From a plasmid: a stretch of DNA of 64,000 nucleotides. The stretch lies in sequence record NZ_CP104760.1; one strand, written 5' to 3'. This document shows positions 2,940 to 29,356 of the stretch, piece after piece. Position numbers and translations under genes: made by a program. The first letter of the stretch is position 1. Each line of letters starts with the position of its first letter. The notes beneath the pieces were generated by a model. It did no database searches. It was not told the origin of the DNA and saw only the letters and a list, made by a program, of their open reading frames with translations.

Positions 2940-3764
2940 TTATGAAAGGGTCTTGAGGAACGCCAGCAGATCGGTGTTCAGCTGCTCGGTATGCGTTACC
3001 GCAAAGCCGTGCGGCGCATTGTCGTACACCTTCAGCTGCGCGCCTTCAATCATCTCTGCGGCCAGCTTGCCGGTGGTTTCGAACGGCACCACCTGGTCGT
3101 TGCTGCCGTGAATAACCAGCGTAGGCACGTCGATTTTCGCCATATCGGGACGGAAATCGGTGGTGGAAAACGCCTTAACGCACTCCAGCGTACCCTTGAG
3201 CGACGCCAGCAGCGCGATATTCAGGGTCTGCGTCAGCACGCCTTCAGAGACGGTCTGTCCGGCATTGGTGCCATAAAAAGGAACGGCGAAGTCGCTGATA
3301 AACTGCGCGCGATCGTTGCGCAGCCCGGCCAGAATGCCGTCGAATACCGACTGATCCACGCCCTGCGGGAAATCTTCCCTTTTGCCGAAAGCTGGCGTGA
3401 CCGCGCCCAGCAGCACCAGGCCATCTACGCGCGCCGAGCCGTAGTTGTTGATGTAGCGCGTCACGTCGCCGCCGCCCATGGAGAAACCCACCAGCGTGAC
3501 GTTCTGCAGGTCGAGATGGGTAATCAGATCGTTGATATCGGATGCGAACGTATCGTAGTCATAGCCGGTCCACGGCTGATCGGAGCGGCCGAAACCACGA
3601 CGATCGAACGCGATGACGCGGTAGCCGTTTTCCGCCAGCAGGTTCAGCTGGTTGTCCCACATATCAGCGTCCAGCGGCCAGCCGTGGCTGAACAGAACGG
3701 GCTTCCCGTTGCCCCAGTCTTTAAAATAGATTTGCGTACCGTCAGCAGTGTTAATCGTGCTCAT
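2940..3764 (-). CDS. alpha/beta hydrolase (non-haem haloperoxidase/arylesterase-like)
   Basis: 274 aa. N-terminus DGTQIYFKDWGNGKPVLFSHGWPLDADMWDNQ. Nucleophile elbow GFSMGG. Typical of the non-haem chloroperoxidase/esterase subfamily. Confidence 0.8.
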   Translation of the reverse strand: MSTINTADGTQIYFKDWGNGKPVLFSHGWPLDADMWDNQLNLLAENGYRVIAFDRRGFGRSDQPWTGYDYDTFASDINDLITHLDLQNVTLVGFSMGGGDVTRYINNYGSARVDGLVLLGAVTPAFGKREDFPQGVDQSVFDGILAGLRNDRAQFISDFAVPFYGTNAGQTVSEGVLTQTLNIALLASLKGTLECVKAFSTTDFRPDMAKIDVPTLVIHGSNDQVVPFETTGKLAAEMIEGAQLKVYDNAPHGFAVTHTEQLNTDLLAFLKTLS

Positions 3765-3800
3765 TGTCTTTTCCTTGTGATGTTGAATGAAAAGCAGCTG

Positions 3801-5429
3801 TTATTCAGGCGCAACCAGATAACGCGCAACCGGCATCTGTTCGGCCTGATGGAATGCATAAACGCGGTTCTGAATTTTCTGGTCGTTCATGGTGTAGCGC
3901 TCAAGCTGGCGCAGATGCTCCATCCAGGAACCCACCACAAAGGTCTCAACGAAAAGGCCCGGCTGAAGGATATCTTCATAGACCGCCCAGTTGATGGCGC
4001 CGCCGCGCCGACGGACACGTCTCATATCCTGCATGCAGAGGGTAAAGGCGTGCGCGTCGGCCTGGCGGATCTGATACTCGTAGCTCACCCGCACCGGTCC
4101 GCGATCGTGATGAATATCGAGCGCCGGCACCGGCTCGCTGATCTCGCTGACATCAAGGTTGAGATCGGGATCTTTATCAAGACGCCAGCGCAGCACGGTA
4201 AGGCTGGCTAGTGCCATACCCAGCGTGGCGATGCAGAGCGAGACCGGGATACCGTAGCGGGACGCGAGCTGCCCCCAGACGGCGCTGCCCAGCGTCATCG
4301 AGCCGAAGAAAACGGTGAGATAGACCGCCAGCGCGCGCGCTTTAACCCAGCGGGCAGCGCTGCGCTGTGCACCCAGGTTCAGCGTCGAGAGCACGGCGAT
4401 CCACGCGAAGCCGGTAAAAAACTCAAAGGCGTTCAGCAGCCAGAAGTGCCTGATAAAGGCGAGCGCCAGCATGGTCGCGGCAAACATCAGGCTCGCCAGC
4501 ACCATCAGCCGATCGGGATTGAACCGTTTACGCAGCCGCGGCAGCAGCACCGCGCCGCTGATGGCGCCTACGCCGATACAGGCGAGCATAATGCCGTAAC
4601 CACCCGGGCCCAGCCCCAGCTCGCGACGCGCCACCAGCGGCAGCAGGGCCCAGCCAGCGCTACCAAAGACAAAGAAGGCGACGGTACGCACCAGCACGTT
4701 GCGCAGCACCGGCGCGGCGTGCACATAGCGCAGACCCGCGCGCACCGCCGAAAAGAAGTGCTCCGGCGGCAGCCGTTGCACGCTGGGCGCTTCTTTCCAG
4801 CGGTAGAGCACCCAGGCCACGCCGAGCACGGAGAGGGCGTTTAGCATGAAGACCATCCACGGCCCCGCGAACGACAGAATCAGACCGCCGAGCGCCGGGC
4901 CGATGGCGCGGCTGATGTTAATGCCGAGCGAGTTCAGCGCGATAGCGGGACCCAGCTCCTCTTTGCTGACCAGATCCGGCACGATGGCCTGAAAGGGCGG
5001 CGAACTCATTGCTGCGCCAGCGCTCATCAGGAAGGCGGCAATCAGCAACACCAGCGGCGTAACGTGCCCGGTGAAAGAGAGTAAAGTCAGACCGGTTGCG
5101 GCAATAAACACCCACAGCTGCGAAAAGAGCAGGTATTTGCGGCGATCGATAATATCCGCCAGCACGCCGGAGGGCAGCGCGAACAGGAACATCGGCAGGC
5201 TGCTGGCCGCCTGCACCAGCGCCACGTTCAGCGGATCGGCGCTGAGCGTCAGCATGGTCCAGTTGACGCCGACGTCATTCATCCAGGAGCCAATATTGGA
5301 GACGACCGTCGCTATCCACAGCATGCGGAACAGAGGCTGGCGCAGCGGCTGCCAGGGCGATGCGGCCGTCGGGACGGGCGCGATCGCCTCGTCCGGGGTG
5401 ACGGCATTGATATCGTTAACCTGCGCCAT
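3801..5429 (-). CDS. MFS transporter with ~120-aa C-terminal cytoplasmic extension
   Basis: ORF 3801-5477. Start set at ATG 5429 (MAQVND), preceded by AGAGAGG. 12-TM-like hydrophobic pattern. MFS signature LPSGVLADIIDRRK. Confidence 0.75.
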   Translation of the reverse strand: MAQVNDINAVTPDEAIAPVPTAASPWQPLRQPLFRMLWIATVVSNIGSWMNDVGVNWTMLTLSADPLNVALVQAASSLPMFLFALPSGVLADIIDRRKYLLFSQLWVFIAATGLTLLSFTGHVTPLVLLIAAFLMSAGAAMSSPPFQAIVPDLVSKEELGPAIALNSLGINISRAIGPALGGLILSFAGPWMVFMLNALSVLGVAWVLYRWKEAPSVQRLPPEHFFSAVRAGLRYVHAAPVLRNVLVRTVAFFVFGSAGWALLPLVARRELGLGPGGYGIMLACIGVGAISGAVLLPRLRKRFNPDRLMVLASLMFAATMLALAFIRHFWLLNAFEFFTGFAWIAVLSTLNLGAQRSAARWVKARALAVYLTVFFGSMTLGSAVWGQLASRYGIPVSLCIATLGMALASLTVLRWRLDKDPDLNLDVSEISEPVPALDIHHDRGPVRVSYEYQIRQADAHAFTLCMQDMRRVRRRGGAINWAVYEDILQPGLFVETFVVGSWMEHLRQLERYTMNDQKIQNRVYAFHQAEQMPVARYLVAPE

Positions 5430-5838
5430 AGCGTACCTCTCTGCGCGCGTCGGAGCCGATGCGCCACTGACCCGCACCGGTAATGGCCAGCGTGGTAAAG
5501 ATAATCAGTAGCAGCCAGCCAAACTGGCCTTCGGCAATGCTCCAGCCGGGGTGGACAACGGTCATGGCGACCAGCAGCACGCCGATAATCGGCAGGCAGG
5601 CGAGCCGGGTAAACAGGCCGAACAGGATAAAAATCGGGCAGATAACTTCGGCAAATATAGCCGGGATCAGGCTCATATAAGGACCGAGGCCAAAGGGATC
5701 CTCGATCCGCGTCAGTTCTTCACTGAAGTGAAACACCTTCGGCAGGCCATGCACGTAGAGCAACAGCAGGCAGCCGGTCAGGCGCAGGAAGAACAGCCCC
5801 GCATTAATGCGGGGCGGCTGAGAAAATCGCGTCGTCAT
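5416..5838 (-). CDS. DoxX-family membrane protein
   Basis: 140 aa with 4 TM-like segments. DoxX-like pattern (LRLTGCLLLLYVHGLPKV...). Overlaps the MFS start by 14 nt. Confidence 0.65.
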   Translation of the reverse strand: MTTRFSQPPRINAGLFFLRLTGCLLLLYVHGLPKVFHFSEELTRIEDPFGLGPYMSLIPAIFAEVICPIFILFGLFTRLACLPIIGVLLVAMTVVHPGWSIAEGQFGWLLLIIFTTLAITGAGQWRIGSDARREVRYGAG

Positions 5839-5843
5839 GGCGA

Positions 5844-7721
5844 TTAAAACGCGAAGCAGCTGCAGCCGAGCACGCCCCAGAAGGCGTTCTCCTCGGACAC
5901 CGGCAGGCTGGCGCCGCGCGCGATATCATGCGAGTGGCTGTGCACGCCGCACGGACCGCTGCACTGATGAGGCATTTGCTGCATCCCTACGCGGGTTGCT
6001 GCGGTCGGCGGCGCGCTGCGGTAGTGACCCGGCACCTTGACGACCGGCGACCACTCCGGCAGAACCGGAATAGAGGGCGGCGCTTCACTGTTAAACGCGC
6101 CGGCGGCGTAGACGATATTGCCGTCCACCAGGGTCAGCACCGACTCGATGCCTTTGATCTCCTCTTCCGGCACGCTGAAGTAGTCTTTGCTCAGCACCAC
6201 CATATCAGCCAGCTGGCCCGCTTTGATTTGACCTTTTTTACCCTGCTCGCTGGAGAACCAGGCGCTGCCCTGCGTCCACAACATCAGCGCGGTATCGCGA
6301 TCGAGACGCGCGTTGACGTCATACATCTGCATGCCGCCGACGGTACGGCCGGAGACCAGCCAGTAGAGCGCGGTCCAGGGGTTATAGCTGGCGACGCGCG
6401 TGGCGTCGGTGCCCAGGCCAACCGGTACGCCGGTCTCCAGCATACGCGCCACCGGCGGCGTGTGGCGGGTCGCTTCAATACCGTAACGCTCGGCAAAATA
6501 TTCGCCCTGGAACGCCATGCGGTGCTGCACCGCAATGCCGCCGCCCAGCTCTTTGATACGGTCGATATTGCGCTGGGTGACGGTCTCCGCATGGTCGAAG
6601 AACCAGTGCAGGCCGTTGAACGGGATCTCGCGGTTAACCTTTTCAAATACGTTGAGCATGCGGTCGATCGATTCGTCATAGGTAGCGTGCAGGCGGAACG
6701 GCCAGCGATGCTCCACCAGATGGCGCACCACGCGCTCCAGCTCATCCTCCATGCCCGGCGCCAGATCGGGACGCGGCTCGAGGAAATCTTCAAAGTCGGC
6801 AGCAGAGAAGACCAGCATCTCTCCCGCGCCGTTGTGGCGGAAGTAGTCGCTGCCCTGGCCCGGCGTCAGCATATCGGTCCACTTTTCAAAATCTTCCAGC
6901 TCGTGTCCCGGCCGCTGAGTAAAGAGGTTATAGGCGATGCGGATCGTCATCTGCTTCTTCTCATGCAGCTCGGCGATGACCTCATAGTCTTCCGGGTAGT
7001 TTTGAAAGCCGCCGCCCGCGTCGATGGCGCTGGTGAGGCCGAGACGGTTCAGTTCGCGCATAAACTGGCGGGTGGAGTTGATCTGCTGCTCCAGCGGCAG
7101 CTTCGGCCCTTTCGCCAGCGTGGCGTAAAGGATCATGGCGTTAGGACGCGCGATCAGCATGCCGGTCGGGTTGCCGTTGCTGTCGCGCTGAATTTCGCCG
7201 CCCGGCGGGTTCGGCGTATCTCGGGTGTAACCCACCACTTTCAGCGCGGCGCGGTTGAGCAGGGCGCGGTCATAGAGGTGGAGGACGAACACCGGGGTAT
7301 CCGGCGCGGCTTCGTTGATCTCGTCCAGCGTCGGCATGCGGCGCTCGGCGAACTGAAACTCGGTCCAGCCGCCCACCACGCGCACCCACTGCGGCGACGG
7401 GGTGCGTAGCGCCTGCTCTTTCAGCATGCGCAGCGCATCGGCGACCGAGGGCACGCCTTCCCAGCGCAGCTCCAGATTGTAGTTCAGGCCGCCGCGGATC
7501 AGGTGCAGGTGCGAGTCGTTAAGGCCCGGCACGGCAGTATGGCCCTTCAGGTCGATGACTTTGGTGCCTTCGCAGTGGTGCTGCATGACGTCAGCCAGGC
7601 TGCCCACTTCCAGAAATTTGCCGTCGCGGATGGCAACGGCATCGGCGATTGGGTTGCCGCGATCGACCGTATGAAACCGGCCATTAGTGAGAATGACGTC
7701 TGCTTTACCAAGGGTAACCAT
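5844..7721 (-). CDS. amidohydrolase-3 family metal-dependent hydrolase (YtcJ-like) with Cys/His-rich C-terminal tail
   Basis: 625 aa. Metal-binding HxH motif (LNDSHLHLIRGG). N-terminal pattern ILTNGRFHTVD typical of Amidohydro_3. ~40-aa tail CSGPCGVHSHSHD...GCSCFAF. Confidence 0.8.
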   Translation of the reverse strand: MVTLGKADVILTNGRFHTVDRGNPIADAVAIRDGKFLEVGSLADVMQHHCEGTKVIDLKGHTAVPGLNDSHLHLIRGGLNYNLELRWEGVPSVADALRMLKEQALRTPSPQWVRVVGGWTEFQFAERRMPTLDEINEAAPDTPVFVLHLYDRALLNRAALKVVGYTRDTPNPPGGEIQRDSNGNPTGMLIARPNAMILYATLAKGPKLPLEQQINSTRQFMRELNRLGLTSAIDAGGGFQNYPEDYEVIAELHEKKQMTIRIAYNLFTQRPGHELEDFEKWTDMLTPGQGSDYFRHNGAGEMLVFSAADFEDFLEPRPDLAPGMEDELERVVRHLVEHRWPFRLHATYDESIDRMLNVFEKVNREIPFNGLHWFFDHAETVTQRNIDRIKELGGGIAVQHRMAFQGEYFAERYGIEATRHTPPVARMLETGVPVGLGTDATRVASYNPWTALYWLVSGRTVGGMQMYDVNARLDRDTALMLWTQGSAWFSSEQGKKGQIKAGQLADMVVLSKDYFSVPEEEIKGIESVLTLVDGNIVYAAGAFNSEAPPSIPVLPEWSPVVKVPGHYRSAPPTAATRVGMQQMPHQCSGPCGVHSHSHDIARGASLPVSEENAFWGVLGCSCFAF

Positions 7722-7850
7722 AGAAACTCCTGAATGAAGGCGTCCGAAGCGGCAAGATCGGCCGTGGACAGCGCATTGTCCTGCCGTAAGTGCAGGTGAC
7801 TGGGATGGCGGGATTATGATCGGGAGGTCTGGAAAGCGTCTAGTTATACA

Positions 7851-7890
7851 AAAGGATAGGTATACGTTCGTATAGGTATACCTAAGGATA
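7851..7890. promoter_or_regulatory. repeat-rich candidate operator in divergent intergenic region
   Basis: AAGGATA-GGTATAC-gttcgt-ATAGGTATACC-TAAGGATAA. Direct repeats AAGGATA x2 and ATAGGTATAC x2. Palindromes GGTATACC and TATACG-tt-CGTATA. Confidence 0.3.
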
Positions 7891-8031
7891 ATAGTTTGAA
7901 AAAGAAAAGGTTCCTACACTGCGCTCAGACAGTGACCCACCGGTAGCGCGACATCCCGCCACTGGGTTAACAGGAAAACTGTTATTTACTGCCGTTAAAT
8001 TTTTCCACGGTATGTAGCCATACTAACCTCA

Positions 8032-8736
8032 ATGGGCAAAGACATGACCAATCGCAAACTTGAAGTACTGACGCCGCAAAACTGCCAGATCATCTTTATC
8101 GACCAGCAGCCGCAGATGGCTTTTGGCGTTCAGTCAATGGATCGCCAGGTGCTGAAAAACAACGTCGTGGCGCTGGCGAAAGCGGCGAAAGTCTTCAACA
8201 TTCCGACCGTACTGACTACCGTTGAGACAGAGAGCTTCTCTGGCAACACTTTCCCGGAGCTGCTGGACGTGTTCCCGGGCCAGGACATTCTTGAGCGCAC
8301 CTCAATGAACTCCTGGGACGATCAGAAAGTGCGCGACGCTCTGGCGGCAAACGGCAAGAAAAAGGTGGTGGTTTCAGGCCTCTGGACCGAGGTGTGCAAC
8401 AACTCCTTCGCGCTGTGCGCCATGCTGGAAGGCGATTATGAAATCTATATGGTAGCTGACGCATCAGGCGGCACCACTAAAGAGGCGCACGACTACGCGA
8501 TGCAGCGCATGGTTCAGGCTGGCGTGATCCCGGTGACCTGGCAGCAGGTGATGCTGGAATGGCAGCGCGACTGGGCCCATAAAGAGACCTATAACGCCGT
8601 TATGGACATTGCGAAAGAGCACTCAGGCGCTTACGGCATCGGCGTCGATTACGCCTACACCATGGTTCACAAAGCACCTTCTCGCCAGAAGAGCGAACAC
8701 CGTACGCTGGCGCCGGTTCCTGCGAACGTTCGTTAA
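8032..8736 (+). CDS. isochorismatase-family hydrolase (YcaC-like)
   Basis: Aligns by eye along its length with E. coli YcaC (NIPTVLTT, VSGLWTEVC, VADASGG). Start may be ATG 8044 (MTNRKL) rather than 8032. Confidence 0.8.
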   Translation: MGKDMTNRKLEVLTPQNCQIIFIDQQPQMAFGVQSMDRQVLKNNVVALAKAAKVFNIPTVLTTVETESFSGNTFPELLDVFPGQDILERTSMNSWDDQKVRDALAANGKKKVVVSGLWTEVCNNSFALCAMLEGDYEIYMVADASGGTTKEAHDYAMQRMVQAGVIPVTWQQVMLEWQRDWAHKETYNAVMDIAKEHSGAYGIGVDYAYTMVHKAPSRQKSEHRTLAPVPANVR

Positions 8737-8794
8737 TCTCGCCAGCTGGCCGGTGGTTCCTGTGGCCGGCCAGCCATGCTGGAAAGGAAAACCT

Positions 8795-9046
8795 GTGACT
8801 CCTTTATTGATCTCTCTGGGCGCGGGCGTGTTAATCGGCCTGGTTTACGCGCTGCTCAAGGTCCAGTCGCCCGCTCCGCCAGCGGTCGCGCTGGTGGGAC
8901 TGCTGGGTATGATCGTTGGCAGCTCCCTGGGCGGCGGGCTGTTTCACCGCGAGGCATCCGCTGTCGTTCCGGTAAAGGAGCAGACGCAGGGTGCCGCGGA
9001 TAAACGCGCGGTATCCCCTCCACTGACCGCGAAACAGGCGAACTGA
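8795..9046 (+). CDS. XapX-domain (DUF1427) small membrane protein
   Basis: GTG start 8795 after AAAGGAAAA. LISLGAGVLIGLVYALLKVQSPAPPAVALVGLLGM matches the XapX-domain signature. No in-frame ATG after the upstream gene stop. Confidence 0.55.
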   Translation: MTPLLISLGAGVLIGLVYALLKVQSPAPPAVALVGLLGMIVGSSLGGGLFHREASAVVPVKEQTQGAADKRAVSPPLTAKQAN

Positions 9047-9303
9047 TGATGCTGAAAACCTATTCTGTTTCGCTGGCGGCTGGCATGCTGGCCGGTCTGA
9101 TTTACGCCGCGCTGGGCGTGCATTCACCGGCACCGCCAATCGTTGCACTGCTGGGGCTGTTTGGCATGCAGGTGGGCGAACACCTTATTCCGCTGGTTAA
9201 AAGCGTGCGTCGCCGTCAGCCGGTTAACCTGCGCTGGTTTCGCCATGAATATCAACATAAAATCGGCGACACACCCCCGCCCTCAGGTGACAAAGCCCCC
9301 TAA
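9046..9303 (+). CDS. XapX-domain (DUF1427) small membrane protein, paralogue of preceding gene
   Basis: MMLKTYSVSLAAGMLAGLIYAALGVHSPAPPIVALLGLFGM. The start overlaps the previous stop (ATGA), indicating translational coupling. Confidence 0.65.
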   Translation: MMLKTYSVSLAAGMLAGLIYAALGVHSPAPPIVALLGLFGMQVGEHLIPLVKSVRRRQPVNLRWFRHEYQHKIGDTPPPSGDKAP

Positions 9304-9347
9304 GGAAGCGCCTCACGCAGGCCTGAGTTTCACGTAAGGAAAACAGC

Positions 9348-9737
9348 ATGCAGCTGTCGCAGCGCATCGTCGTCGTCGTCGATGATGAACGTTCTGTCCG
9401 CAATGGGCTTACCAACTTGCTTCAGTCTGAAGGTTATCTCACCCAGGCTTTTGAATCGGCAGAATCGCTTCTCTGTGATGAAGGCGCGATGGCGAATGCC
9501 GCGCTGTTTATCATTGATGTGCAACTGAAAGGCATGAATGGTTTCGAGCTTTTCATTAATCTTACCCGGCGGCTCTCCAGTCCGCCGGGTATTCTCGTTT
9601 CCGGCAACGGAGATGACAGCATGCTGCGGTACGCCATCGATCTTGGCGCAGTCGCTTTTTTGCCAAAACCTATCGAGATTGATACGTTGTTTGAACATAT
9701 CCGTCAGGCGTTCTCCTCGAGGGCCGCTCGCCAATGA
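9348..9737 (+). CDS. stand-alone response-regulator receiver (CheY-like) protein
   Basis: 129 aa. Acidic pocket VVVVDDE. Phospho-acceptor Asp in FIIDVQLKGMNG. Conserved Lys in AFLPKP. No output domain. Confidence 0.85.
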   Translation: MQLSQRIVVVVDDERSVRNGLTNLLQSEGYLTQAFESAESLLCDEGAMANAALFIIDVQLKGMNGFELFINLTRRLSSPPGILVSGNGDDSMLRYAIDLGAVAFLPKPIEIDTLFEHIRQAFSSRAARQ

Positions 9738-12700
9738 GCATCAATCCGCAAACGTCAGATTTAGCAGAAAACGATCCAATCGCGCTGTCAGACGATATCT
9801 CCTTTAGCCCGCTGGCGCAGGAGGGCAATGTTGAGTGGATTCTGTGTCGACATGCGGTTACCGGCGAAACCTTTGTGCTGGCTACCGCAGGCAATGAAGA
9901 GTCGGTTTTTCAGGTTACGCAACTGCTGAAAAATGAGTATGCGCTGCGTGCCAGACTCTCTGAGCGCTGGGCGTTAAAACCCCTGAGCCACACGCTCTGT
10001 CAGGGCCGTTACGCCCTGATTTACAGCGCCTTTAACTACCGTACGCTGGCGGATATCCTCAGTATGCCCCCTGGCGGCATCGCTGAATTTCTTGCCAGCG
10101 CAACGCTGCTCTGCAATACGCTGAGCCTGATGCATCAGCAGGGTCTGGTGCACGGCGATATCAAACCGGCGAACTTTTTTTACAGCGATGAAGGCACCGT
10201 TCACCTTGGCGGCTTCGGACTGGCATCGGTAGACAGCGACCTGCTTCAGCAGCCGCGCCTGCCGGTCGCGGGCGGCACGCTCGCCTATATGTCGCCTGAG
10301 CATACTTCCCGCTCAGCGCACCCTGTGAGCCGCGTGAGCGATTTGTACAGTCTGGGTATTGTGCTGTATGAGTTACTGACCGGCAGGCTCCCTTATGGCA
10401 ATGCCGATGGCGGCCATGCAGAGTGGGTACACCATCATATTGCGTCAGAAGCGCTGCCGCCTCATCTGATACGACAGGAGATCCCGGCTGTTCTCTCCGC
10501 CATCATCTTACGGCTGCTGGCGAAATCGCCGGAGTACCGTTACCAGACGGCGGAAGGGGTGCTGGCCGATCTGCGGCGTTGCGCATCGACGCTGAGGCCG
10601 GATGGAAAGATAGAGACTTTTGCTCTTGGCATGCAGGATTCTCAGGCTGCGAATTTATCATCCGACGCGCTCTGTTCGGATCATCCTCAGGCGACCGATA
10701 TTCTGGCGGCTTTCGACGAGGTCAGCAGAAGCGGCAAACACAGTCTGGTGGTGATAAGCGGCGCGCCGGGCGCGGGCAAATCTTCGCTGATCGCCTCGTC
10801 GTTTAAGCTGCTGCGGAATAAGAACGCCCTGATGACCGTCGTTAAGGCGGACCGCCACTCTCCCGTTTTACCCTACGCTGTTTTTACCGCCGCCTTCAGA
10901 ACGCTGACGCTGCATGTGCTGGGTCTTCCCACCGAAGAGATGACGCGCTGGAAGGCGCACATCGCCTGCCTGCTGGGCGACTATGCCGGGCTGGCGGTTA
11001 ACCTGGTGCCTGAGCTGGGCGTATTGCTCAATCAGAAAGCAGCTGTTCATACGCATACGCACTCTCTTGACGCCAGAAATCGCTTTAACCTGGTGGCATG
11101 CAGCCTGGTTAAAGCCTTTACGGCGCCGGGCCGTCCGCTGGTTATTCTTATCGACGATGTTCACTGGGCCGACCGCGCCACGCTGCTGCTGCTGCAAAAC
11201 CTGCTGACCCAGAGCGAGGAGATCCCTCTGCTGCTGGCGATTGCACATCGTGACAGCGTTTCGTTACCCTGCGCCGCGATAGCCGAGAATCTGAAAGCTG
11301 TCCGGGCCTGCGCGGCCCGCATTACGGATATCACGCCCGAGCCCTTTTCAGTAAAAAAGATAACAAACTGGCTGGCCGGGCTTTTTCATACCCGCAGCGG
11401 CGAGACGGAAGAGCTGGCGCAGCTTATTCACGAAAAAACCGCAGGCAACCCGCTCGCAACGCATGATTTTTTTCGCCAGGCGCTGCGCGACGGCTTTATA
11501 TCCCATAACGCGCCATTTCGCTGGGCCTACGACGCGCAGGCGATCAAAAACTGCCACTATGCGGCAAACGTCGCGGCCAGCGTGTTGCAGCATCTGACCA
11601 CGCTGCCGCTGCCGACCCGCCATCTGCTGGGGAAGTTTGCCTCTCTGGGCAGCGCAGGTGAGCTGGATACCATGAGCAGCATCCTCGATCTCGCCGTGGC
11701 GGAGATTGAACGGACGCTTCTGCCAGCGGTAGTGGCAAAGCTGATTTCGCTGAACGGCAGGGAGTACGCTTTTATGCATGACAGTATGCATGAGGCGGCG
11801 CTTAATCTGCTGGAACCCGCCGAACAGGATGCCTTCCATTATCTGGCCGCGCTGCACTATATGCATAAGTCGAACGTCGACATCACCAGTGCCGTTCTTT
11901 TCAGGGCCGCGCACCACCTGCTGACGATAAAAAACAGCGGGCTGCTGGCGCATGATGCGCATACCTTCGGTCAGCTGCTGCTGAAAGCGAGCAGGCGAGC
12001 AAAAGATAGCGGCGATTATTTCTCGGCGCTGCGATACCTGCGAACCGCGCGCTTGCTTCATGACAGCACGGGCAGCGCCGATCAGGGGGAGTTTTTACTT
12101 GAGGAGGCCGAGTGCGAATTCCTTAACGGCAACCTCGCTGTCGCGCTGGCGTTGTGCTCAGAAATTGCGGCCTCGCCCGGCGAAATAACGGAGAAAGCTG
12201 AAGCGGCCTGTCTGATCGCCGAAATTCATATGCGCCAGTCAGACAGCAAACTCGCGCTGGAGACTGCGCTTGCCTGGCTGGCGGTGTTCGGCATTCAGCT
12301 CAACCGCTACCCGGACAGCAAAGAGTGCGATGCGGCACGGATCCTCCTCAAAGAGGCGGTCGGTAAAAACCCCTATTCCCGGTTCCGCGCGCTGCCGCTC
12401 CTCAACTGTAAAAAAACAGAAGCGGTCATGAACCTGATGGCCAGCGCCAGCACCTTTGCCGCCTTCAGCAATCCGCGGCTGCACTTTATGATCCTGTGCC
12501 AGCTCCTGCATCTGACGATGGCGCGCGGCCTGAGCGGCGCATCGACTCTCGCCTTATCCTGGTATGGCGTGGTGTGCGGCGATCAATATGCTGAATACAG
12601 CCGGGGATTCGCCAGTACGCTTCTGGCGCGCGAGCTGGTGTATAAACATGATTTTGTGAGTTTTAAAGCGCGTACGCTTCTTCCGCTTGATCAGGTCAGC

Positions 12701-15301
12701 GTCTGGACGATGCCGCTGACCTATGCCATTGAACGCGCAAAAGCCGCCTTTGACGTCGGGGTTGAGACCGGCGACAGGACGTCAGCCTGCCTGGCGCTGC
12801 GCCATATGGTGATGAACTATCTTGCCCGCGGCGACCATCTGGAGGCTGTCCATACCTCTGTCACGCGCGGCATGCTGTTTGTCCGTAAGGCGCAGTATCG
12901 GGACGTAGAGGTCGTTCTGAGCATGCAGCTGGATTATATTCAGTTCCTGCGTAAGCCGCGCGGAAGCGAATTTTCAGGCCGCGATTTCCTGCCTCCGACG
13001 CTGGAGGCGGTGAAAGTTGAAAACGCCGTTGAGCCTATGTATCTGATCCAGTTCTGGACGCGGCTCTATAAAGGCATGGCGCACTTTTTCGCCGCTGAAT
13101 ATGCCTGCGCCGCGCAGTACTTCGCCGATGCAGCGCCCTTTACCGACCATATTCCCGGCCATGTGCACATGCTGGATTTCCATCTCTACAGCGCGCTGGC
13201 GCTGACGATACCGCTGAAGCCTGGTCCCCTCAGCGGCCCGTTACGCCAGCAGCTGCAGCTGCATCTCGACAAACTCGTCACCTGGGCGAACGAAAACGCA
13301 AAAACCTTTTCAGACAAAGAGGCGCTGCTGCGCGCTGAGCTGCTGCGCCTTGACGGAGAGGCTGCGCTGGCGTCCGAACAGTTTGAAAAAGCCATCGCTT
13401 TGTCGCGCGAAGGGCAGTTCCATCATATCAACGGGCTGGCGTGCGAGCTGGCAGCGCGTATGGCGTATGCGAGAAATATGGCGTTCTCGGGCGATGCCTA
13501 TATCAAAGGGGCGATATCCGCCTGGGATCGCTGGGGCGCGGGCGCGAAGGTGCGCCAGCTGGAGATGCAGTATCCCTCTGTTACCGGACATCACACGCAG
13601 ACCGCGCTGAGCACCGTCTCCTTTGAGCAAAGCGCGGTGAGCAGCGATCTGCAGAGCATGGTGACGGTGATGCGCGCGCTCACCGAGGAGATCAATCTGG
13701 ATCGCCTTATTCATATTCTGATGATGATGCTGGTCGAGCGGGCAGGGGCGCAGCACTGCATGCTGATACGGCTGACCGAGGGCAATATACCGGAAATTCA
13801 GGCGAGGGCGTCCACTACCGTCGAAGGGGTGAAGGTCAAAATTGTGCGCGAACTCCCCACCGCGACCGATCTCCCGCTTTCGGTTTTATCTGCGGTGATC
13901 CGCACCGGCCAGGAGATTCGCACCGGTAAGCCGGAGGTATTCAGCCCCTTCAGCCAGGATAATTATCTGGTGGCGTCTGGCGCGGCGGTCATGTGCGTGC
14001 CGATGTTCCGGCAGGCGCAGATGGTCGGCGTGCTCTATCTGGAAAACCGGCTGATGCCTGACGTCTTCACCGCCGATCACTCCAGGATCGTATCAATGCT
14101 CGGGGCGCAGGCCGCCGTCTCTCTTGAGACCGCTCGCCTCTATGCCGAACTGGTCGATGAGAACAACCAGCGCCGCAAAATCGAAAAGCAGCTGCGCGCC
14201 AGTCAGACGTCGCTGATGCTGGGGGAGAAAATAAGCCATACCGGCACCTGGCACTGGCACGTTGAGCCCGACATCCAGTACATCTCCGACGAATATAAAC
14301 GCATCATGGGGCTGCCGGACTCGCAGACCACCACCTCAATGGCGGAGTTTCAGCGTCGCGTTCACCCGGACGATATTCTCTCTCTGCGGGAGCTGATTGA
14401 GACCAGCGTTGAGAAAGGCGTCGTTATGCAGGCGGAGTTTCGCATTATCCGCGATGATGGCGAGTGTCGGTACATTAAAGGCATTGGCGAACCAAACGAT
14501 AACTGGCCTGAAGTGGCGGAGTATTTCGGCACCCTGACGGATATCACCGCGCAACGCCAGTCTGAGGATGCGGTCAGGATCGCGCAGGCGGATCTGGCTC
14601 GCGTCGCCCGCGCGACCACGGTGGGCCAGCTTACCTCTTCCATCGCTCATGAGATCAACCAGCCGCTGATGTCGATTGTAGCGAACGCTGGCGCGGGTCT
14701 GAGATGGCTGAAGCGCGAACCGCCGCAGCTGGAAAATGTCAGCCAGAGCATGGAGGAGATTATCCGGGAAGGTCGCCGCGCGGGCGATATTATTCGCGGG
14801 CTTCAGGCGCTGACCCGTAACCAGGCGGCGGAGTTCGCTCCGGCAAGGCTGCACCCTATCGCGCGGGATATATTAAACCTGTCGCGGCTTGAGCTGGAGC
14901 GCCGGTTCGTCTCCCTTGAGCTGAACCTGGCCGCTGAGAGTGATGAAATTTTTTGTGAGAGCGTACAGATTCAGCAGGTGCTGCTTAACCTTGTTATCAA
15001 CGCCATCGAAGCCATGACCGACAACGCGGGTATGAGCATCCTGCGTATTTCCTCCTCCCAGCCGGGCGACAACCTTATCCGTATGGAGGTCGCTGATAAC
15101 GGTACGGGCCTTTCCGATGAGATGATCGGAAAAGTGTTCGATTCGTTCTACACCACCAAAGCGGAGGGAATGGGCATGGGGCTGACGATCAGCAATGAAA
15201 TCATCAAACGTCATGGTGGAGAATTACGGGCGGAAAACCGCCCGGAAGGCGGGTGCGTTTTCTGGTTTACGCTGCCTTTGGCGCCCGCATCTCAAGCCTG
15301 A
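9734..15301 (+). CDS. 1855-aa multidomain sensor: protein-kinase-like domain / AAA (STAND-like) ATPase / helical repeats / GAF / PAS / histidine kinase
   Basis: Kinase-like motifs HGDIKPANFF and AYMSPE. Walker A GAPGAGKSS and Walker B LVILIDDVHWAD. GAF-like region ~aa 1290-1450. PAS-like region ~aa 1480-1600. HK H-box SIAHEINQPL, N-box LLNLVINAIEAM, G1 DNGTGL, G2 GMGMGLTIS. ATG overlaps the upstream REC stop (ATGA). Confidence 0.85.
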   Translation: MSINPQTSDLAENDPIALSDDISFSPLAQEGNVEWILCRHAVTGETFVLATAGNEESVFQVTQLLKNEYALRARLSERWALKPLSHTLCQGRYALIYSAFNYRTLADILSMPPGGIAEFLASATLLCNTLSLMHQQGLVHGDIKPANFFYSDEGTVHLGGFGLASVDSDLLQQPRLPVAGGTLAYMSPEHTSRSAHPVSRVSDLYSLGIVLYELLTGRLPYGNADGGHAEWVHHHIASEALPPHLIRQEIPAVLSAIILRLLAKSPEYRYQTAEGVLADLRRCASTLRPDGKIETFALGMQDSQAANLSSDALCSDHPQATDILAAFDEVSRSGKHSLVVISGAPGAGKSSLIASSFKLLRNKNALMTVVKADRHSPVLPYAVFTAAFRTLTLHVLGLPTEEMTRWKAHIACLLGDYAGLAVNLVPELGVLLNQKAAVHTHTHSLDARNRFNLVACSLVKAFTAPGRPLVILIDDVHWADRATLLLLQNLLTQSEEIPLLLAIAHRDSVSLPCAAIAENLKAVRACAARITDITPEPFSVKKITNWLAGLFHTRSGETEELAQLIHEKTAGNPLATHDFFRQALRDGFISHNAPFRWAYDAQAIKNCHYAANVAASVLQHLTTLPLPTRHLLGKFASLGSAGELDTMSSILDLAVAEIERTLLPAVVAKLISLNGREYAFMHDSMHEAALNLLEPAEQDAFHYLAALHYMHKSNVDITSAVLFRAAHHLLTIKNSGLLAHDAHTFGQLLLKASRRAKDSGDYFSALRYLRTARLLHDSTGSADQGEFLLEEAECEFLNGNLAVALALCSEIAASPGEITEKAEAACLIAEIHMRQSDSKLALETALAWLAVFGIQLNRYPDSKECDAARILLKEAVGKNPYSRFRALPLLNCKKTEAVMNLMASASTFAAFSNPRLHFMILCQLLHLTMARGLSGASTLALSWYGVVCGDQYAEYSRGFASTLLARELVYKHDFVSFKARTLLPLDQVSVWTMPLTYAIERAKAAFDVGVETGDRTSACLALRHMVMNYLARGDHLEAVHTSVTRGMLFVRKAQYRDVEVVLSMQLDYIQFLRKPRGSEFSGRDFLPPTLEAVKVENAVEPMYLIQFWTRLYKGMAHFFAAEYACAAQYFADAAPFTDHIPGHVHMLDFHLYSALALTIPLKPGPLSGPLRQQLQLHLDKLVTWANENAKTFSDKEALLRAELLRLDGEAALASEQFEKAIALSREGQFHHINGLACELAARMAYARNMAFSGDAYIKGAISAWDRWGAGAKVRQLEMQYPSVTGHHTQTALSTVSFEQSAVSSDLQSMVTVMRALTEEINLDRLIHILMMMLVERAGAQHCMLIRLTEGNIPEIQARASTTVEGVKVKIVRELPTATDLPLSVLSAVIRTGQEIRTGKPEVFSPFSQDNYLVASGAAVMCVPMFRQAQMVGVLYLENRLMPDVFTADHSRIVSMLGAQAAVSLETARLYAELVDENNQRRKIEKQLRASQTSLMLGEKISHTGTWHWHVEPDIQYISDEYKRIMGLPDSQTTTSMAEFQRRVHPDDILSLRELIETSVEKGVVMQAEFRIIRDDGECRYIKGIGEPNDNWPEVAEYFGTLTDITAQRQSEDAVRIAQADLARVARATTVGQLTSSIAHEINQPLMSIVANAGAGLRWLKREPPQLENVSQSMEEIIREGRRAGDIIRGLQALTRNQAAEFAPARLHPIARDILNLSRLELERRFVSLELNLAAESDEIFCESVQIQQVLLNLVINAIEAMTDNAGMSILRISSSQPGDNLIRMEVADNGTGLSDEMIGKVFDSFYTTKAEGMGMGLTISNEIIKRHGGELRAENRPEGGCVFWFTLPLAPASQA

Positions 15302-15333
15302 AGCAGGGCGATCCAGGCAGCAACGGGGCGCGG

Positions 15334-15948
15334 TTAGCTTTGCTCAGGCAGACCCAGCTTTTCCGCCGCCCTGACGAGGTCCGAGACTGACCGGACCGCC
15401 ATTTTTTCCATTACCCTGCGCTTATGCACCTTAGCCGTTATTTCGCTGATCCCCATTTCAGCCGCAACCTGCTTGTTCAGCAGGCCGCGAATAACATACT
15501 GCATAAGCTCTTTCTCGCGCGGCGTCAGCGAACTAAAGCGCGCGGTCATTGCTCGCTTCTCCTGCGACGCCAGCGCGCATTTTTCCGACAGCGCCAGTGC
15601 TTCTGAAACCACCCTCAGCAATGCGTCCGGCATAACGGGCTTGGTGAGGAACTCAAATGCACCCGCCTTCATCGCCCTGACGGTAAGCGGGATGGTGCCA
15701 TACCCGGTCAGAAAGATGGTCGGAATCGAATAGCCCCGCTCCGTCAGATGAAGCGAGACATCAAAACCATCAAGCTCCGGCATGTTCAGATCCACTATCA
15801 GGCAGCAGGGCGTACTGTAATCGGCCTGGTCAAGAAAGGCAGACGGAGAGAGAAAAGTCGAAACCTGGTAACCTTCGGAACTGAGAAGGTTCTGCAGCGA
15901 GGCGATGACCGATTCTTCATCATCAACGATATAAATTGTTTTATCCAT
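15334..15948 (-). CDS. FixJ/NarL (LuxR-type HTH) family response regulator
   Basis: 204 aa. Receiver motifs IYIVDDEES, LIVDLNMPELDG, AFEFLTKP. C-terminal LuxR HTH (LTPREKELMQYVIRGLLNKQVAAEMGISEITAKVHKRRVMEKM). Confidence 0.9.
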   Translation of the reverse strand: MDKTIYIVDDEESVIASLQNLLSSEGYQVSTFLSPSAFLDQADYSTPCCLIVDLNMPELDGFDVSLHLTERGYSIPTIFLTGYGTIPLTVRAMKAGAFEFLTKPVMPDALLRVVSEALALSEKCALASQEKRAMTARFSSLTPREKELMQYVIRGLLNKQVAAEMGISEITAKVHKRRVMEKMAVRSVSDLVRAAEKLGLPEQS

Positions 15949-27983: not shown

Positions 27984-28655
27984 ATGGATTATCAATTTAA
28001 CTTCCACTTTCTCAGCGGACATTTCGACGCGCTGTGGGATGGCTTAAAAATAACCCTTGAGCTTTCACTGATGGCAAACGTGCTTGGCCTGACGCTGGGA
28101 TTTATTTTATGCCTGATGGCGATGAGCCGCTTTTCTGTTATTCGCTGGCCAACGAAATTATTTATTGAGTTTTTTCGCTGTACGCCGGTATTGCTGCAAA
28201 TCGTCTGGTTTTACTACTGCGTTCCAATGATGTTCAACCTGTTTATCGACCCGATATATATGGGCTTTCTGGCGCTAGGGCTGAACCTGGCCGCGTTTAA
28301 CGCCGAGGCCTACCGCGCGGGCGTGCAGGCCGTACCGCGAGAACATCACGACGCTGGCGTAGCGCTGGGGCTGAACGGCCTGCAGCAGACGCTTTATGTG
28401 GTGCTGCCGCAGGCGTTTCGCAGCGCGCTGCCGGTGCTGATGACCAACGGCATTTCCATCCTGCAGCAGACGGCGCTGGTCGCGATTGTCGCCATCTCCG
28501 ACCTGATGTACGTGGGGAAGAACATTGCCACCGAGAGCTATCGTCCGCTGGAAACCTACTCGCTGATCGCGCTGATCTACTTCGCGCTATCGCTGCCGAT
28601 TTCCCAGCTGGTTTCCTGGATCGAGCGTCGTCAGGACGCGGCGACGGCGCGCTAA
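27984..28655 (+). CDS. amino-acid ABC transporter permease (His/Glu/Gln/Arg/opine family)
   Basis: 223 aa, 5-6 TM segments. Permease of the polar amino-acid type. Confidence 0.8.
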   Translation: MDYQFNFHFLSGHFDALWDGLKITLELSLMANVLGLTLGFILCLMAMSRFSVIRWPTKLFIEFFRCTPVLLQIVWFYYCVPMMFNLFIDPIYMGFLALGLNLAAFNAEAYRAGVQAVPREHHDAGVALGLNGLQQTLYVVLPQAFRSALPVLMTNGISILQQTALVAIVAISDLMYVGKNIATESYRPLETYSLIALIYFALSLPISQLVSWIERRQDAATAR

Positions 28656-28665
28656 GGAGCGGATT

Positions 28666-29331
28666 ATGACGCTTGATTTCACGCAGGTTTTTTCTTACTG
28701 GCACGTGCTACTGCAGGGGCTGGGTATCACGCTGATTTTTACGCTGAGCTGCGCCGTGCTGGGAAGCCTGGCGGGCTTTGTTATCAGCCTGCTGCGCCTC
28801 TCCTCTTTTGCGCCGCTGCGCTGGCTGCTCACGCTCTACGTGGAGTTCTTTCGCGGAACGCCGCTGCTGATCCAGCTGTTCTGGGTGTTCTTTTGCTTTC
28901 CGGTGGTCTTCCGGCTCGATATTTCGCCCTGGGTCTGCGTCACGCTTTCACTGGTGATGTATATGGCGGCGATCACCAGCGAAACCTTTCGCGGCTCGCT
29001 GAAGTCGATCGCTGGCGAGCAGCATGACGCCTGCGTGGCGCTCAGCCTGACGCCTGCCGCCAGGGTGCTTTACGTTATTTTCCCGCAGGCGCTGCTGCGC
29101 GCCGTGCCAACGTTGCTGTCGAACGTGGTCAGCCTGTTTAAAGAGAGCGCGCTGATCTCGTCCGTCGGCGTCGCCGACCTGATGTTCGTCGGCCAGAACA
29201 TATCCAACAGTACGGCGCGTCCGGTTGAGTTTCTCACCGCCGTCGCTGTGATCTATTTCGTCGTGGCATTCCCCTTAACGCGTCTGGTGGGCGTCGTCGA
29301 GTCGCGTTTGCTGCGTCGCTACGCCCTTTGA
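28666..29331 (+). CDS. amino-acid ABC transporter permease (second subunit)
   Basis: 221 aa, paralogous to the preceding permease. Confidence 0.8.
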   Translation: MTLDFTQVFSYWHVLLQGLGITLIFTLSCAVLGSLAGFVISLLRLSSFAPLRWLLTLYVEFFRGTPLLIQLFWVFFCFPVVFRLDISPWVCVTLSLVMYMAAITSETFRGSLKSIAGEQHDACVALSLTPAARVLYVIFPQALLRAVPTLLSNVVSLFKESALISSVGVADLMFVGQNISNSTARPVEFLTAVAVIYFVVAFPLTRLVGVVESRLLRRYAL

Positions 29332-29356
29332 TAACCGATCCACAGGAGCTGTAACC

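What the first reader, a model, noticed from the sequence alone, without database searches (positions are those of the whole stretch)
9734..10650. Kinase-like N-terminal domain of the giant sensor looks catalytically degenerate (pseudokinase)
The catalytic-loop Asp and APE motif are present (HGDIKPAN, YMSPE). The position of the Mg-binding DFG is GFG (HLGGFGLA). The beta3 VAIK lysine position reads FVLAT. No Gly-rich GxGxxG loop is visible (LAQEGNVEW). Loss of both the ATP-anchoring Lys and the DFG Asp is the classic pseudokinase signature. The domain may act as a scaffold or allosteric sensor feeding the AAA/HK parts rather than as a phosphotransferase.
Basis: inference. Interest (0 to 1): 0.6.

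Follow-up and report, generated by a model that had tools for sequence, protein, structure and literature searches.

The report
Conserved pseudokinase domain on giant histidine-kinase sensor
The N-terminal domain of this 1855-residue plasmid-encoded bacterial sensor is a well-folded protein-kinase look-alike that has lost the residues that hold ATP and magnesium; this loss is shared by a whole, already catalogued family, so the finding is correct but not new.

Summary
Observation confirmed. Gene 9734..15301(+) encodes Pkinase-like / AAA_16 / ~800-aa helical region / GAF / PAS / HisKA / HATPase_c. Alignment to M. tuberculosis PknB, to Lys/Asp-bearing relatives, and a confident AlphaFold2 model all agree. 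The beta3 Lys position is Ala50 (FVLAT). DFG is GFG (Gly160). The Gly-rich loop is AQEGN. HGD-IKPAN (D142, K144, N147), alphaC Glu68 and SPE (187-189) are kept. Residues 1-56 contain no Lys, and no conserved acidic residue lies near GFG. All 19 full-length Enterobacterales orthologues lack both residues, yet the domain has dN/dS of 0.06-0.17, like the other domains. Among 64 family representatives clustered at 50% identity, 51 lack both residues, including 36 of the 40 scored as ending in the query-type histidine kinase. The domain meets the sequence definition of a pseudokinase and is a selected, folded module. A non-phosphotransferase regulatory or scaffold role within a cytoplasmic sensor that signals to FixJ/LuxR-type regulators is the most likely reading, but it is untested. 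The class is already described: the "CP1" COG3899-linked bacterial pseudokinases (Kannan-lab atlas 2025, review PMC12599244), and BphS/BpdS/HstK-type dual-kinase sensors. This protein is a new member of a known kind; interest is modest.

The parts
9348..9737 (+). Stand-alone receiver (REC-only, 129 aa) gene; its stop overlaps the sensor's start codon (ATGA)
   Evidence: Pfam Response_reg E=2.4e-20. Sequence read. Present immediately upstream in all 19 orthologous loci.
9734..15301 (+). Giant cytoplasmic sensor gene (1855 aa): kinase-like domain, AAA_16, helical middle region, GAF, PAS, HisKA, HATPase_c
   Evidence: Exact match to WP_269950649.1, Pantoea piersonii plasmid. No 19-residue window reaches transmembrane hydrophobicity (maximum Kyte-Doolittle 1.48).
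9791..10603 (+). Protein-kinase-fold (pseudokinase) domain, aa 20-290
   Evidence: Pfam Pkinase aa 38-272. AF2 model pLDDT 89, bilobal kinase fold closest to PknB.
9881..9883 (+). Codon for Ala50, at the position of the ATP-anchoring beta3 (VAIK) Lys
   Evidence: Alignments. Strand beta3 = residues 46-52 in the model. Coordinates.
9935..9937 (+). Codon for Glu68, the retained alphaC Glu (invariant 'NE' in orthologues)
10151..10174 (+). Catalytic loop HGDIKPAN (aa 140-147): His, Asp142, Lys144 and Asn147 kept; HRD Arg replaced by Gly
   Evidence: phmmer alignment to PknB HRDVKPAN. Orthologue variation.
10211..10219 (+). GFG (aa 160-162) in place of the Mg-binding DFG
10286..10300 (+). YMSPE (aa 185-189): end of the activation segment, APE-equivalent; part of the invariant GGTLAYMSPEH block
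10694..11233 (+). AAA_16 P-loop NTPase domain (aa 321-500). Walker A GAPGAGKS is at nt 10760-10783 and Walker B LVILIDD at nt 11138-11158
   Evidence: Pfam AAA_16 E=1.1e-23. Both motifs are conserved in orthologues.
13694..14125 (+). GAF domain (aa 1321-1464)
   Evidence: It is the most conserved domain among orthologues (75% mean identity).
14279..14512 (+). PAS domain (aa 1516-1593)
14624..15283 (+). Histidine-kinase core: HisKA (aa 1631-1698; phospho-acceptor His1639 at nt 14648-14650) and HATPase_c (aa 1743-1850); FixL-like
   Evidence: The H-box SIAHEINQPL is essentially invariant in orthologues.
15334..15948 (-). Convergent FixJ/LuxR-type response regulator (REC + GerE HTH, 204 aa), the probable cognate output
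   Evidence: Found in the same position in 18 of the 19 full-length orthologous loci, all except L007, and also in the disrupted locus L056.

Best explanation
The N-terminal domain is a genuine, folded Hanks-type kinase fold that has lost canonical ATP/Mg2+-dependent phosphotransfer. It lacks the beta3 Lys, the DFG Asp and a Gly-rich loop. It has been kept for a long time as a non-catalytic module of a cytoplasmic sensor chassis: pseudokinase, then P-loop AAA_16 NTPase, then a helical region, then GAF. In this protein the chassis drives a FixL-like histidine-kinase output. That output probably signals to the convergent FixJ/LuxR regulator and to the co-translated stand-alone receiver, controlling the adjacent hydrolase/transporter genes. 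The parts of the fold that stay most conserved are the catalytic loop, the activation segment/P+1 loop (GGTLAYMSPEHTxRT) and the SDLYSLG region, which in active kinases bind the protein substrate. The likeliest role is therefore protein-protein or intramolecular docking (dimerisation, scaffolding, or allosteric coupling to the NTPase and histidine kinase), not phosphorylation. Shown here: fold, residue losses, their conservation, purifying selection, domain architecture and gene neighbourhood. Inferred: absence of catalysis, the docking role, and the regulatory targets.
For: Residue mapping comes from three independent routes: phmmer against PknB, MAFFT with PknB and Lys/Asp-bearing relatives, and AF2 secondary structure with PknB as the best fold match. 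No Lys occurs in aa 1-56, and D167/D169 are not conserved. All 19 full-length orthologues from about 12 Enterobacterales genera lack the beta3 Lys and the DFG Asp. The Mg-binding Asn147 varies among them (N/H/K/T), and one orthologue has HGN. dN/dS of the domain is 0.06-0.17, equal to or lower than the AAA_16 and middle regions. Of 64 family representatives clustered at 50% identity, 51 lack both residues. That includes 36 of the 40 scored as ending in the query-type histidine kinase. At least three of the full-length members scored 'noHK' carry HisKA_2/HisKA_3 histidine kinases instead. In an NJ tree the degenerate forms make one derived group, and the query's subclade often also loses the catalytic Asp. 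Pfam Pkinase scores are 60-106 bits for the degenerate forms, against 233-265 bits whole-protein for the proteins with Lys/Asp-bearing domains; those proteins each hold two or three kinase stretches, so the gap overstates the per-domain difference. The Walker A/B motifs and the H-box are intact and conserved, so the protein has other working ATP-using modules and a working output. The literature independently classes COG3899-linked kinase domains of proteobacteria and cyanobacteria as a family rich in pseudokinases.
Against: The H-x-D-x-K catalytic loop, the alphaC Glu and usually the Asn are conserved across most of the wider clade. That could reflect a residual or non-canonical activity rather than a purely structural role. 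Some kinases lacking one of these residues still work: CASK has GFG and WNK has a relocated Lys (both from my own knowledge), and ULK4 binds ATP without metal. The docking or scaffold role is an inference from which surfaces are conserved; no partner interface was modelled. The model's coordinates could not be inspected, so the state of the pocket is not known.
Confidence: 0.75

Rival explanations
1. The domain keeps a non-canonical nucleotide-dependent function. It could bind ATP or another nucleotide without the Lys/Asp pair, as ULK4 does. It could catalyse Mg-independent phosphotransfer, as CASK (which also has GFG) does. Or it could carry out a different chemistry such as AMPylation, as SelO does. 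Under any of these the protein would be a true dual-activity enzyme.
For: His140, Asp142 and Lys144 are conserved in 18 of 19 orthologues. Asp142 is conserved in 56 of 64 family representatives, alphaC Glu in 58 of 64 and Asn147 in 54 of 64. The review makes the same suggestion for the related DLHK family, which also has GFG and lacks the beta3 Lys.
Against: The strands beta1-beta3 have no Lys and no conserved Arg that could replace the anchor. There is no Gly-rich loop. The Mg-binding Asn147 is not conserved among orthologues, and the catalytic Asp is Asn or Ala in L003, P0157, P0167, P0178, P0188 and P0273, all from the query's own branch. The three active-site arginines proposed for DLHK have no conserved counterpart visible in the beta2 strand here.
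Confidence: 0.17
2. The degraded ATP pocket has become the ligand-sensing site of the sensor. It would bind the small-molecule inducer of the adjacent hydrolase/transporter genes, and the AAA_16, GAF and PAS domains would only relay the signal.
For: The protein is cytoplasmic. It sits in a conserved island of hydrolase and transporter genes. The related BphS/BpdS sensors respond to small aromatic compounds. Pseudokinase pockets can bind ligands (general knowledge; mentions drug binding to the TYK2 pseudokinase).
Against: There is no direct evidence. GAF and PAS are the classical ligand-binding domains, and GAF is the most conserved part of the protein (75% identity). The N-lobe residues lining the pocket vary among orthologues.
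Confidence: 0.06
3. The domain is a decaying, functionless remnant of a once-active kinase.
For: It has lost two of the three catalytic-triad residues and has a low Pfam score.
Against: dN/dS is 0.06-0.17 in ten pairwise comparisons, as low as in the AAA_16 domain. About 60 positions are invariant across eleven subfamily sequences. The AF2 model is confident. The domain is retained in 50%-identity cluster representatives carrying several different output domains.
Confidence: 0.02

Closest known systems
CP1 family of bacterial Ser/Thr (pseudo)kinases (Kannan-lab atlas, bioRxiv 10.1101/2025.01.12.632604; review PMC12599244)
   Same: Found in proteobacteria and cyanobacteria, cytosolic with no transmembrane region. 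The kinase-fold domain is fused to a COG3899-type predicted ATPase, often with GAF (FhlA-like) and PAS domains. A large fraction lack catalytic residues, and no member has been studied experimentally.
   Different: The atlas reports only 17% of CP1 lacking the DFG Asp and 37% lacking the HRD Asp. The histidine-kinase-linked branch studied here almost always lacks the DFG Asp and the beta3 Lys but mostly keeps the HRD Asp. The papers do not discuss the histidine-kinase output or the partner regulators. Formal assignment with the atlas's own classifier could not be run.
DLHK pseudokinases (e.g. P. aeruginosa Q9I0B5)
   Same: The same motif pattern: VAIK becomes AVLT, the HRD Asp is kept, and DFG becomes GFG. 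Proteobacterial, no transmembrane region, and described as closely related to CP1.
   Different: DLHK domains are fused to DEAD-like helicase and DNA2 domains and are not N-terminal. This protein has AAA_16, GAF, PAS and a histidine kinase and no helicase domain.
BphS1/BpdS large sensor kinases of Rhodococcus (with BphT/BpdT regulators)
   Same: [quoted passage not shown] They work as two-component systems with a partner regulator (BphT/BpdT) to control catabolic gene clusters. That the partner is LuxR-type is my own knowledge.
   Different: They are actinobacterial and sense aromatic hydrocarbons.
HstK family of cyanobacteria (Phalip et al. 2001, cited in PMC2853384)
   Same: [quoted passage not shown] Variants exist with the output swapped for a cyclase, as seen in this family.
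   Different: The two cyanobacterial relatives shown in the alignment (P0084, P0097) keep the beta3 Lys and a DFS/DFG Asp, so they are probably active kinases. The window protein does not keep them.
Eukaryotic pseudokinase regulators (JAK JH2, KSR, HER3, ULK4, CASK)
   Same: A kinase fold with lost catalytic residues that acts as an allosteric or scaffolding partner of a catalytic module. CASK also carries GFG, and ULK4 lacks the Lys and the DFG Asp (and my own knowledge). One relative (P0207) even has a canonical kinase immediately followed by the GFG pseudokinase, as in JAKs.
   Different: There is no specific homology beyond the shared kinase fold. The regulated module here is a histidine kinase or P-loop NTPase on the same chain.

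Membership tests
Catalytically competent Hanks-type Ser/Thr protein kinase | Bilobal protein-kinase fold | tested here: met
   Pfam Pkinase E=1.1e-21. AF2 model pLDDT 89. Best PDB matches are PknB, TM 0.71-0.82.
Catalytically competent Hanks-type Ser/Thr protein kinase | beta3 (VAIK) Lys that anchors the ATP phosphates | tested here: not met
   The position is Ala50. No Lys occurs in aa 1-56. It is absent in all 19 orthologues.
Catalytically competent Hanks-type Ser/Thr protein kinase | DFG Asp that binds Mg2+ | tested here: not met
   The position is Gly160 (GFG). It is G or S in all orthologues.
Catalytically competent Hanks-type Ser/Thr protein kinase | Gly-rich GxGxxG loop | tested here: not met
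   The loop reads AQEGN. Lys/Asp-bearing relatives also lack the motif, so this is a family trait.
Catalytically competent Hanks-type Ser/Thr protein kinase | HRD catalytic Asp, catalytic-loop Lys and Asn | tested here: met
   HGDIKPAN aligns to PknB HRDVKPAN. The Arg is replaced by Gly. The Asn varies among orthologues and the Asp is lost in some relatives.
Catalytically competent Hanks-type Ser/Thr protein kinase | Measured ATP binding and phosphotransfer | not testable with these tools
   This needs purified protein.
Pseudokinase (sequence definition: at least one of VAIK-Lys, HRD-Asp, DFG-Asp missing) | Loss of at least one catalytic-triad residue within a recognisable kinase fold | tested here: met
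   Two of the three are lost.
CP1 bacterial (pseudo)kinase family | Kinase-fold domain physically linked to a COG3899-type predicted ATPase | tested here: met
   AAA_16 follows directly at aa 321-500. Source names such as 'Predicted ATPase' and 'predicted ATPase/signal transduction histidine kinase' are given to near-identical proteins. COG3899 itself could not be scanned.
CP1 bacterial (pseudo)kinase family | No transmembrane region; proteobacterial or cyanobacterial; frequent GAF (FhlA) and PAS domains | tested here: met
   Maximum hydrophobicity 1.48. Host is Pantoea, a gammaproteobacterium. GAF and PAS are present.
CP1 bacterial (pseudo)kinase family | Assignment by the atlas's own pattern-based classifier and family-specific constraints | not testable with these tools
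   The classifier and its profiles are not available. The motif frequencies in this branch differ from the CP1 averages.
DLHK pseudokinase family | Fusion to DEAD-like helicase and DNA2 domains | tested here: not met
   No such Pfam domains are present.
BphS/BpdS-type dual-domain sensor kinase two-component system | N-terminal Ser/Thr-kinase-like domain plus C-terminal histidine-kinase core on one large cytoplasmic protein, paired with a LuxR-type regulator next to catabolic genes | tested here: met
BphS/BpdS-type dual-domain sensor kinase two-component system | Sequence homology to BphS1/BpdS over the full length | not tested
   Those sequences could not be retrieved with the tools.

The most novel reading that the evidence does not exclude
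The GFG kinase-fold domain is not inert. It would be a conserved switch module that uses its intact catalytic loop and substrate-binding groove, either to dock one of the two receiver proteins or a segment of its own chain, or to perform a non-canonical nucleotide reaction. Through that it would gate the P-loop NTPase and hence the histidine kinase. This would be a bacterial, single-chain analogue of JAK-type pseudokinase control, reused with histidine-kinase, GGDEF and cyclase outputs across many phyla.
Probability: 0.15. Interest if true: 0.65.

Novelty: new member of a known kind. Interest (0 to 1): 0.3.

Why it matters
Some source names, such as UniRef's, call close relatives of this protein 'trifunctional serine/threonine-protein kinase/ATP-binding protein/sensor histidine kinase'. 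For this protein and most of its histidine-kinase-linked relatives, the Ser/Thr kinase activity that name implies is very unlikely. No member of this large pseudokinase group has been characterised experimentally. A Pantoea plasmid copy with a compact, conserved gene neighbourhood (two receiver proteins and a hydrolase/transporter island) would be a tractable model. It could be used to ask what a bacterial pseudokinase does inside a two-component sensor. For this window alone, the result is a correct annotation refinement rather than a discovery.

Tried and rejected
1. A relocated catalytic Lys (WNK-like, in beta2 or the G-loop): rejected. Residues 1-56 contain no Lys, and Arg39 is R/H/Q among orthologues.
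2. A replacement acidic residue near GFG: D167 and D169 exist, but their positions are not conserved.
3. A decaying remnant or pseudogene: rejected by dN/dS of 0.06-0.17.
4. A simple story that the kinase lost catalysis when another output was fused: only partly supported. Lys/Asp-bearing forms also occur with cyclase, second-kinase, sigma-54 and even histidine-kinase outputs.
5. DLHK membership: rejected, because no helicase or DNA2 domains are present.
6. A sequence search of PDB with the AAA_16 plus middle region (aa 311-1300) found nothing, so that region has no structural template.
7. The first homologue search returned only proteins of 545 aa or less. Full-length relatives had to be recovered from genome loci and from the representative search.
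8. Many top hits in the representative search were unrelated multi-kinase-domain proteins that scored by summed domains. They were excluded by requiring an adjacent AAA_16 or middle region.
9. Kwon et al. 2019 (Sci Signal) and Phalip et al. 2001 (HstK) could not be read.
10. A literature search for COG3899, HstK and the 'trifunctional' name found no functional study of a proteobacterial member.
11. The coordinates of the AF2 model are not exposed, so the pocket geometry could not be inspected.
Full report
**What is there.** The finding lies at the 5' end of a 5568-nt ORF, 9734..15301 on the + strand. The ORF encodes an 1855-aa protein.
- Pfam finds Pkinase (aa 38-272, E=1.1e-21), AAA_16 (321-500), a weak TPR match inside an ~800-aa middle region, GAF (1321-1464), PAS_3 (1516-1593), HisKA (1631-1698) and HATPase_c (1743-1850).
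- The histidine-kinase core is most like FixL.
- The protein is identical to WP_269950649.1 of Pantoea piersonii, variously named 'AAA family ATPase' and 'ATP-binding sensor histidine kinase'.
- The window matches plasmid p277859 (NZ_CP115897.1) at 99.3% identity.
- No 19-residue window reaches transmembrane hydrophobicity, so the protein is cytoplasmic.
- A 129-aa stand-alone receiver gene (9348..9737) overlaps the start codon by ATGA.
- A FixJ/LuxR-type response regulator (15334..15948) lies convergently downstream.

**Checking the observation.** All quoted peptides are present at the stated place.
- phmmer against PDB aligns aa 113-289 to M. tuberculosis PknB (E about 4e-27). HGDIKPAN falls on HRDVKPAN, GGFGLA on MDFGIA, and YMSPE on YLSPE.
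- The N-lobe does not align by phmmer.
- In that alignment PknB K40 falls on Ala50 (FVLAT), E59 on Glu68, D138 on Asp142, N143 on Asn147 and D156 on Gly160.
- Relatives that still have Lys and Asp (for example cyanobacterial P0084 'VVIKL ... HKDIKPAN ... DFS') share the same columns. This anchors the assignment inside the family.
- An AlphaFold2 model built on a 79-sequence alignment is confident (mean pLDDT 89.2, pTM 0.89). It puts strand beta3 at residues 46-52 and helix alphaC at 55-70. Its best PDB matches are PknB kinase domains, with TM-score 0.71 normalised to the query and 0.82 to the target.
- Residues 1-56 contain no Lys at all. The only acidic residues after GFG are D167 and D169, and those positions vary among orthologues.
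- One nuance: Lys/Asp-bearing members of the same family also lack GxGxxG. The missing Gly-rich loop is an older family trait and not independent evidence.

**Is it a one-off?** No.
- A scan of one genome per species found 19 full-length orthologues of 1840-1902 aa. They come from Rouxiella, Pantoea, Erwinia, Cedecea, Pseudescherichia, Chimaeribacter, Phytobacter, Kosakonia, Franconibacter, Enterobacter and Silvania. One further copy, in Enterobacter sp. EA-1, is disrupted.
- Every orthologue has Ala or Thr at the Lys position and Gly or Ser at the DFG-Asp position.
- The Mg-binding Asn147 varies (N/H/K/T), and the Cedecea copy has HGN.
- The alphaC 'NE', GGTLAYMSPEH, SDLYSLG, Walker A, Walker B and the H-box are essentially invariant.
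- Nei-Gojobori dN/dS for ten pairs is 0.06-0.17 in the kinase-like domain. This is the same as or lower than in the AAA_16 and middle regions (0.09-0.28). The domain is under purifying selection and is not decaying.

**The wider family.** An exhaustive phmmer search of 1.84 billion cluster representatives gave 1901 proteins at E<=1e-30.
- Among the best 150, 64 have the kinase-fold domain next to an AAA_16 or middle region.
- Of those 64, 51 lack both the Lys and the DFG Asp. That includes 36 of the 40 my query-derived profile scored as ending in a histidine kinase. Only 10 keep both.
- At least three full-length members scored 'noHK' carry other histidine-kinase types.
- An unsupported neighbour-joining tree puts the Lys/Asp-bearing forms basally and the degenerate forms in one derived group. 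In the query's own subclade the catalytic Asp is also often Asn or Ala.
- The same chassis (kinase fold, AAA_16, middle region, GAF) carries different outputs: HisKA, HisKA_2 or HisKA_3 histidine kinases, GGDEF, adenylate/guanylate cyclase, a sigma-54 AAA+ domain or a second kinase.
- Degenerate domains score 60-106 bits against Pfam Pkinase. The proteins with Lys/Asp-bearing domains score 233-265 bits in total, but each holds two or three kinase stretches, so these totals are not per-domain values.

**Mechanism (inferred).** The protein has an intact P-loop NTPase and an intact histidine kinase, so ATP use and signalling output are provided elsewhere in the chain.
- The kinase fold has lost what holds ATP and Mg.
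- It keeps, with near invariance, the catalytic loop, the activation segment/P+1 loop and the following helices. These are the surfaces that bind protein substrates in active kinases.
- I therefore favour a non-catalytic docking or allosteric role: dimerisation, binding of a segment of its own chain, or binding of a partner such as one of the two receiver proteins. This role would couple to the NTPase and the histidine kinase. My confidence that the domain is not a conventional phosphotransferase is about 0.75.
- The main rival is non-canonical nucleotide binding or catalysis. It is kept at about 0.17, because H-x-D-x-K and usually Asn are conserved across the wider clade and the literature raises this for the related DLHK family.
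- A ligand-sensing pocket and a functionless remnant are less likely. The remnant reading is contradicted.

**Comparison with what is known.** The class is already catalogued.
- The Kannan-lab atlas of bacterial Ser/Thr kinases and its 2025 review define the CP1 family. CP1 is found in cyanobacteria and proteobacteria, has no transmembrane region, is always linked to a COG3899 predicted ATPase, and often carries GAF/FhlA or PAS domains. About 34% of members lack the VAIK Lys and 17% lack the DFG Asp. None has been studied experimentally.
- The sister DLHK family shows the same AVLT / HRD / GFG pattern but is fused to helicase domains, which this protein lacks.
[quoted passage not shown] Examples are BphS1/BpdS in Rhodococcus, which control catabolic genes, and HstK in cyanobacteria.
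- This protein meets the testable CP1 features. Formal assignment needs the atlas's classifier.
- The motif frequencies of the histidine-kinase-linked branch (almost always GFG with the HxD Asp mostly kept) differ from the CP1 averages. This is a small refinement, not a new kind.

**Verdict.** The pseudokinase interpretation is supported by sequence, model, conservation and selection, while the functional role remains inference. The protein is a new member of a known kind, and interest is modest (0.3). The value lies in correcting the 'trifunctional Ser/Thr kinase' type of annotation and in offering a compact, conserved plasmid locus as a model for an unstudied bacterial pseudokinase family.

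Noticed in passing
window 2940-15948; loci L001-L019: A gene island is conserved across about 12 Enterobacterales genera. On the minus strand it holds an alpha/beta hydrolase, an MFS transporter, DoxX and an amidohydrolase_3. Divergent from these on the plus strand are a YcaC-like isochorismatase-family hydrolase, two DUF1427 genes, the REC gene and the giant sensor, followed by the convergent LuxR regulator. The two enzymes compared are 84-96% identical to the window's across genera, but the regulator genes only 47-80%. The substrate of the pathway is unknown.
   Followed up: partly
whole window: The window comes from a large, non-mobilizable Pantoea piersonii plasmid. It is 99.3% identical to NZ_CP115897.1 p277859, from a human blood isolate, and the sensor protein is identical to WP_269950649.1.
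   Followed up: yes
L056:9974-10417: In Enterobacter sp. EA-1 the orthologous sensor ORF stops after 147 aa, and the flanking amidohydrolase and isochorismatase matches are also partial. The locus is probably degraded or a pseudogene.
   Followed up: no
protein P0207 (representative search): This relative has a high-scoring canonical kinase domain (aa 104-374). It is followed by the GFG pseudokinase (aa 457-711) and then AAA_16 and GAF, a JAK-like kinase-plus-pseudokinase tandem in a bacterium.
   Followed up: no
proteins P0199, P0212, P0239, P0246, P0249, P0250, P0294: The same kinase-fold / AAA_16 / middle / GAF chassis is joined to interchangeable outputs. These include HisKA_2 and HisKA_3 histidine kinases, GGDEF, adenylate/guanylate cyclase, and a sigma-54 AAA+ domain plus a second kinase.
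   Followed up: partly
L003:9971-15547 (Cedecea): This orthologue has HGN instead of HGD and GFC instead of GFG. It has therefore lost all three catalytic-triad residues, yet the ORF is full length.
   Followed up: no
window 9734-9737: The receiver gene's stop codon overlaps the sensor's ATG (ATGA), which suggests translational coupling of the stand-alone receiver and the sensor.
   Followed up: no
window 4001-6000 and 28001-30000: Two 2-kb bins have unusual AT skew: +0.25 at 63% GC in the first and -0.18 in the second. The first covers the minus-strand MFS/DoxX/amidohydrolase genes. The second was not examined.
   Followed up: no
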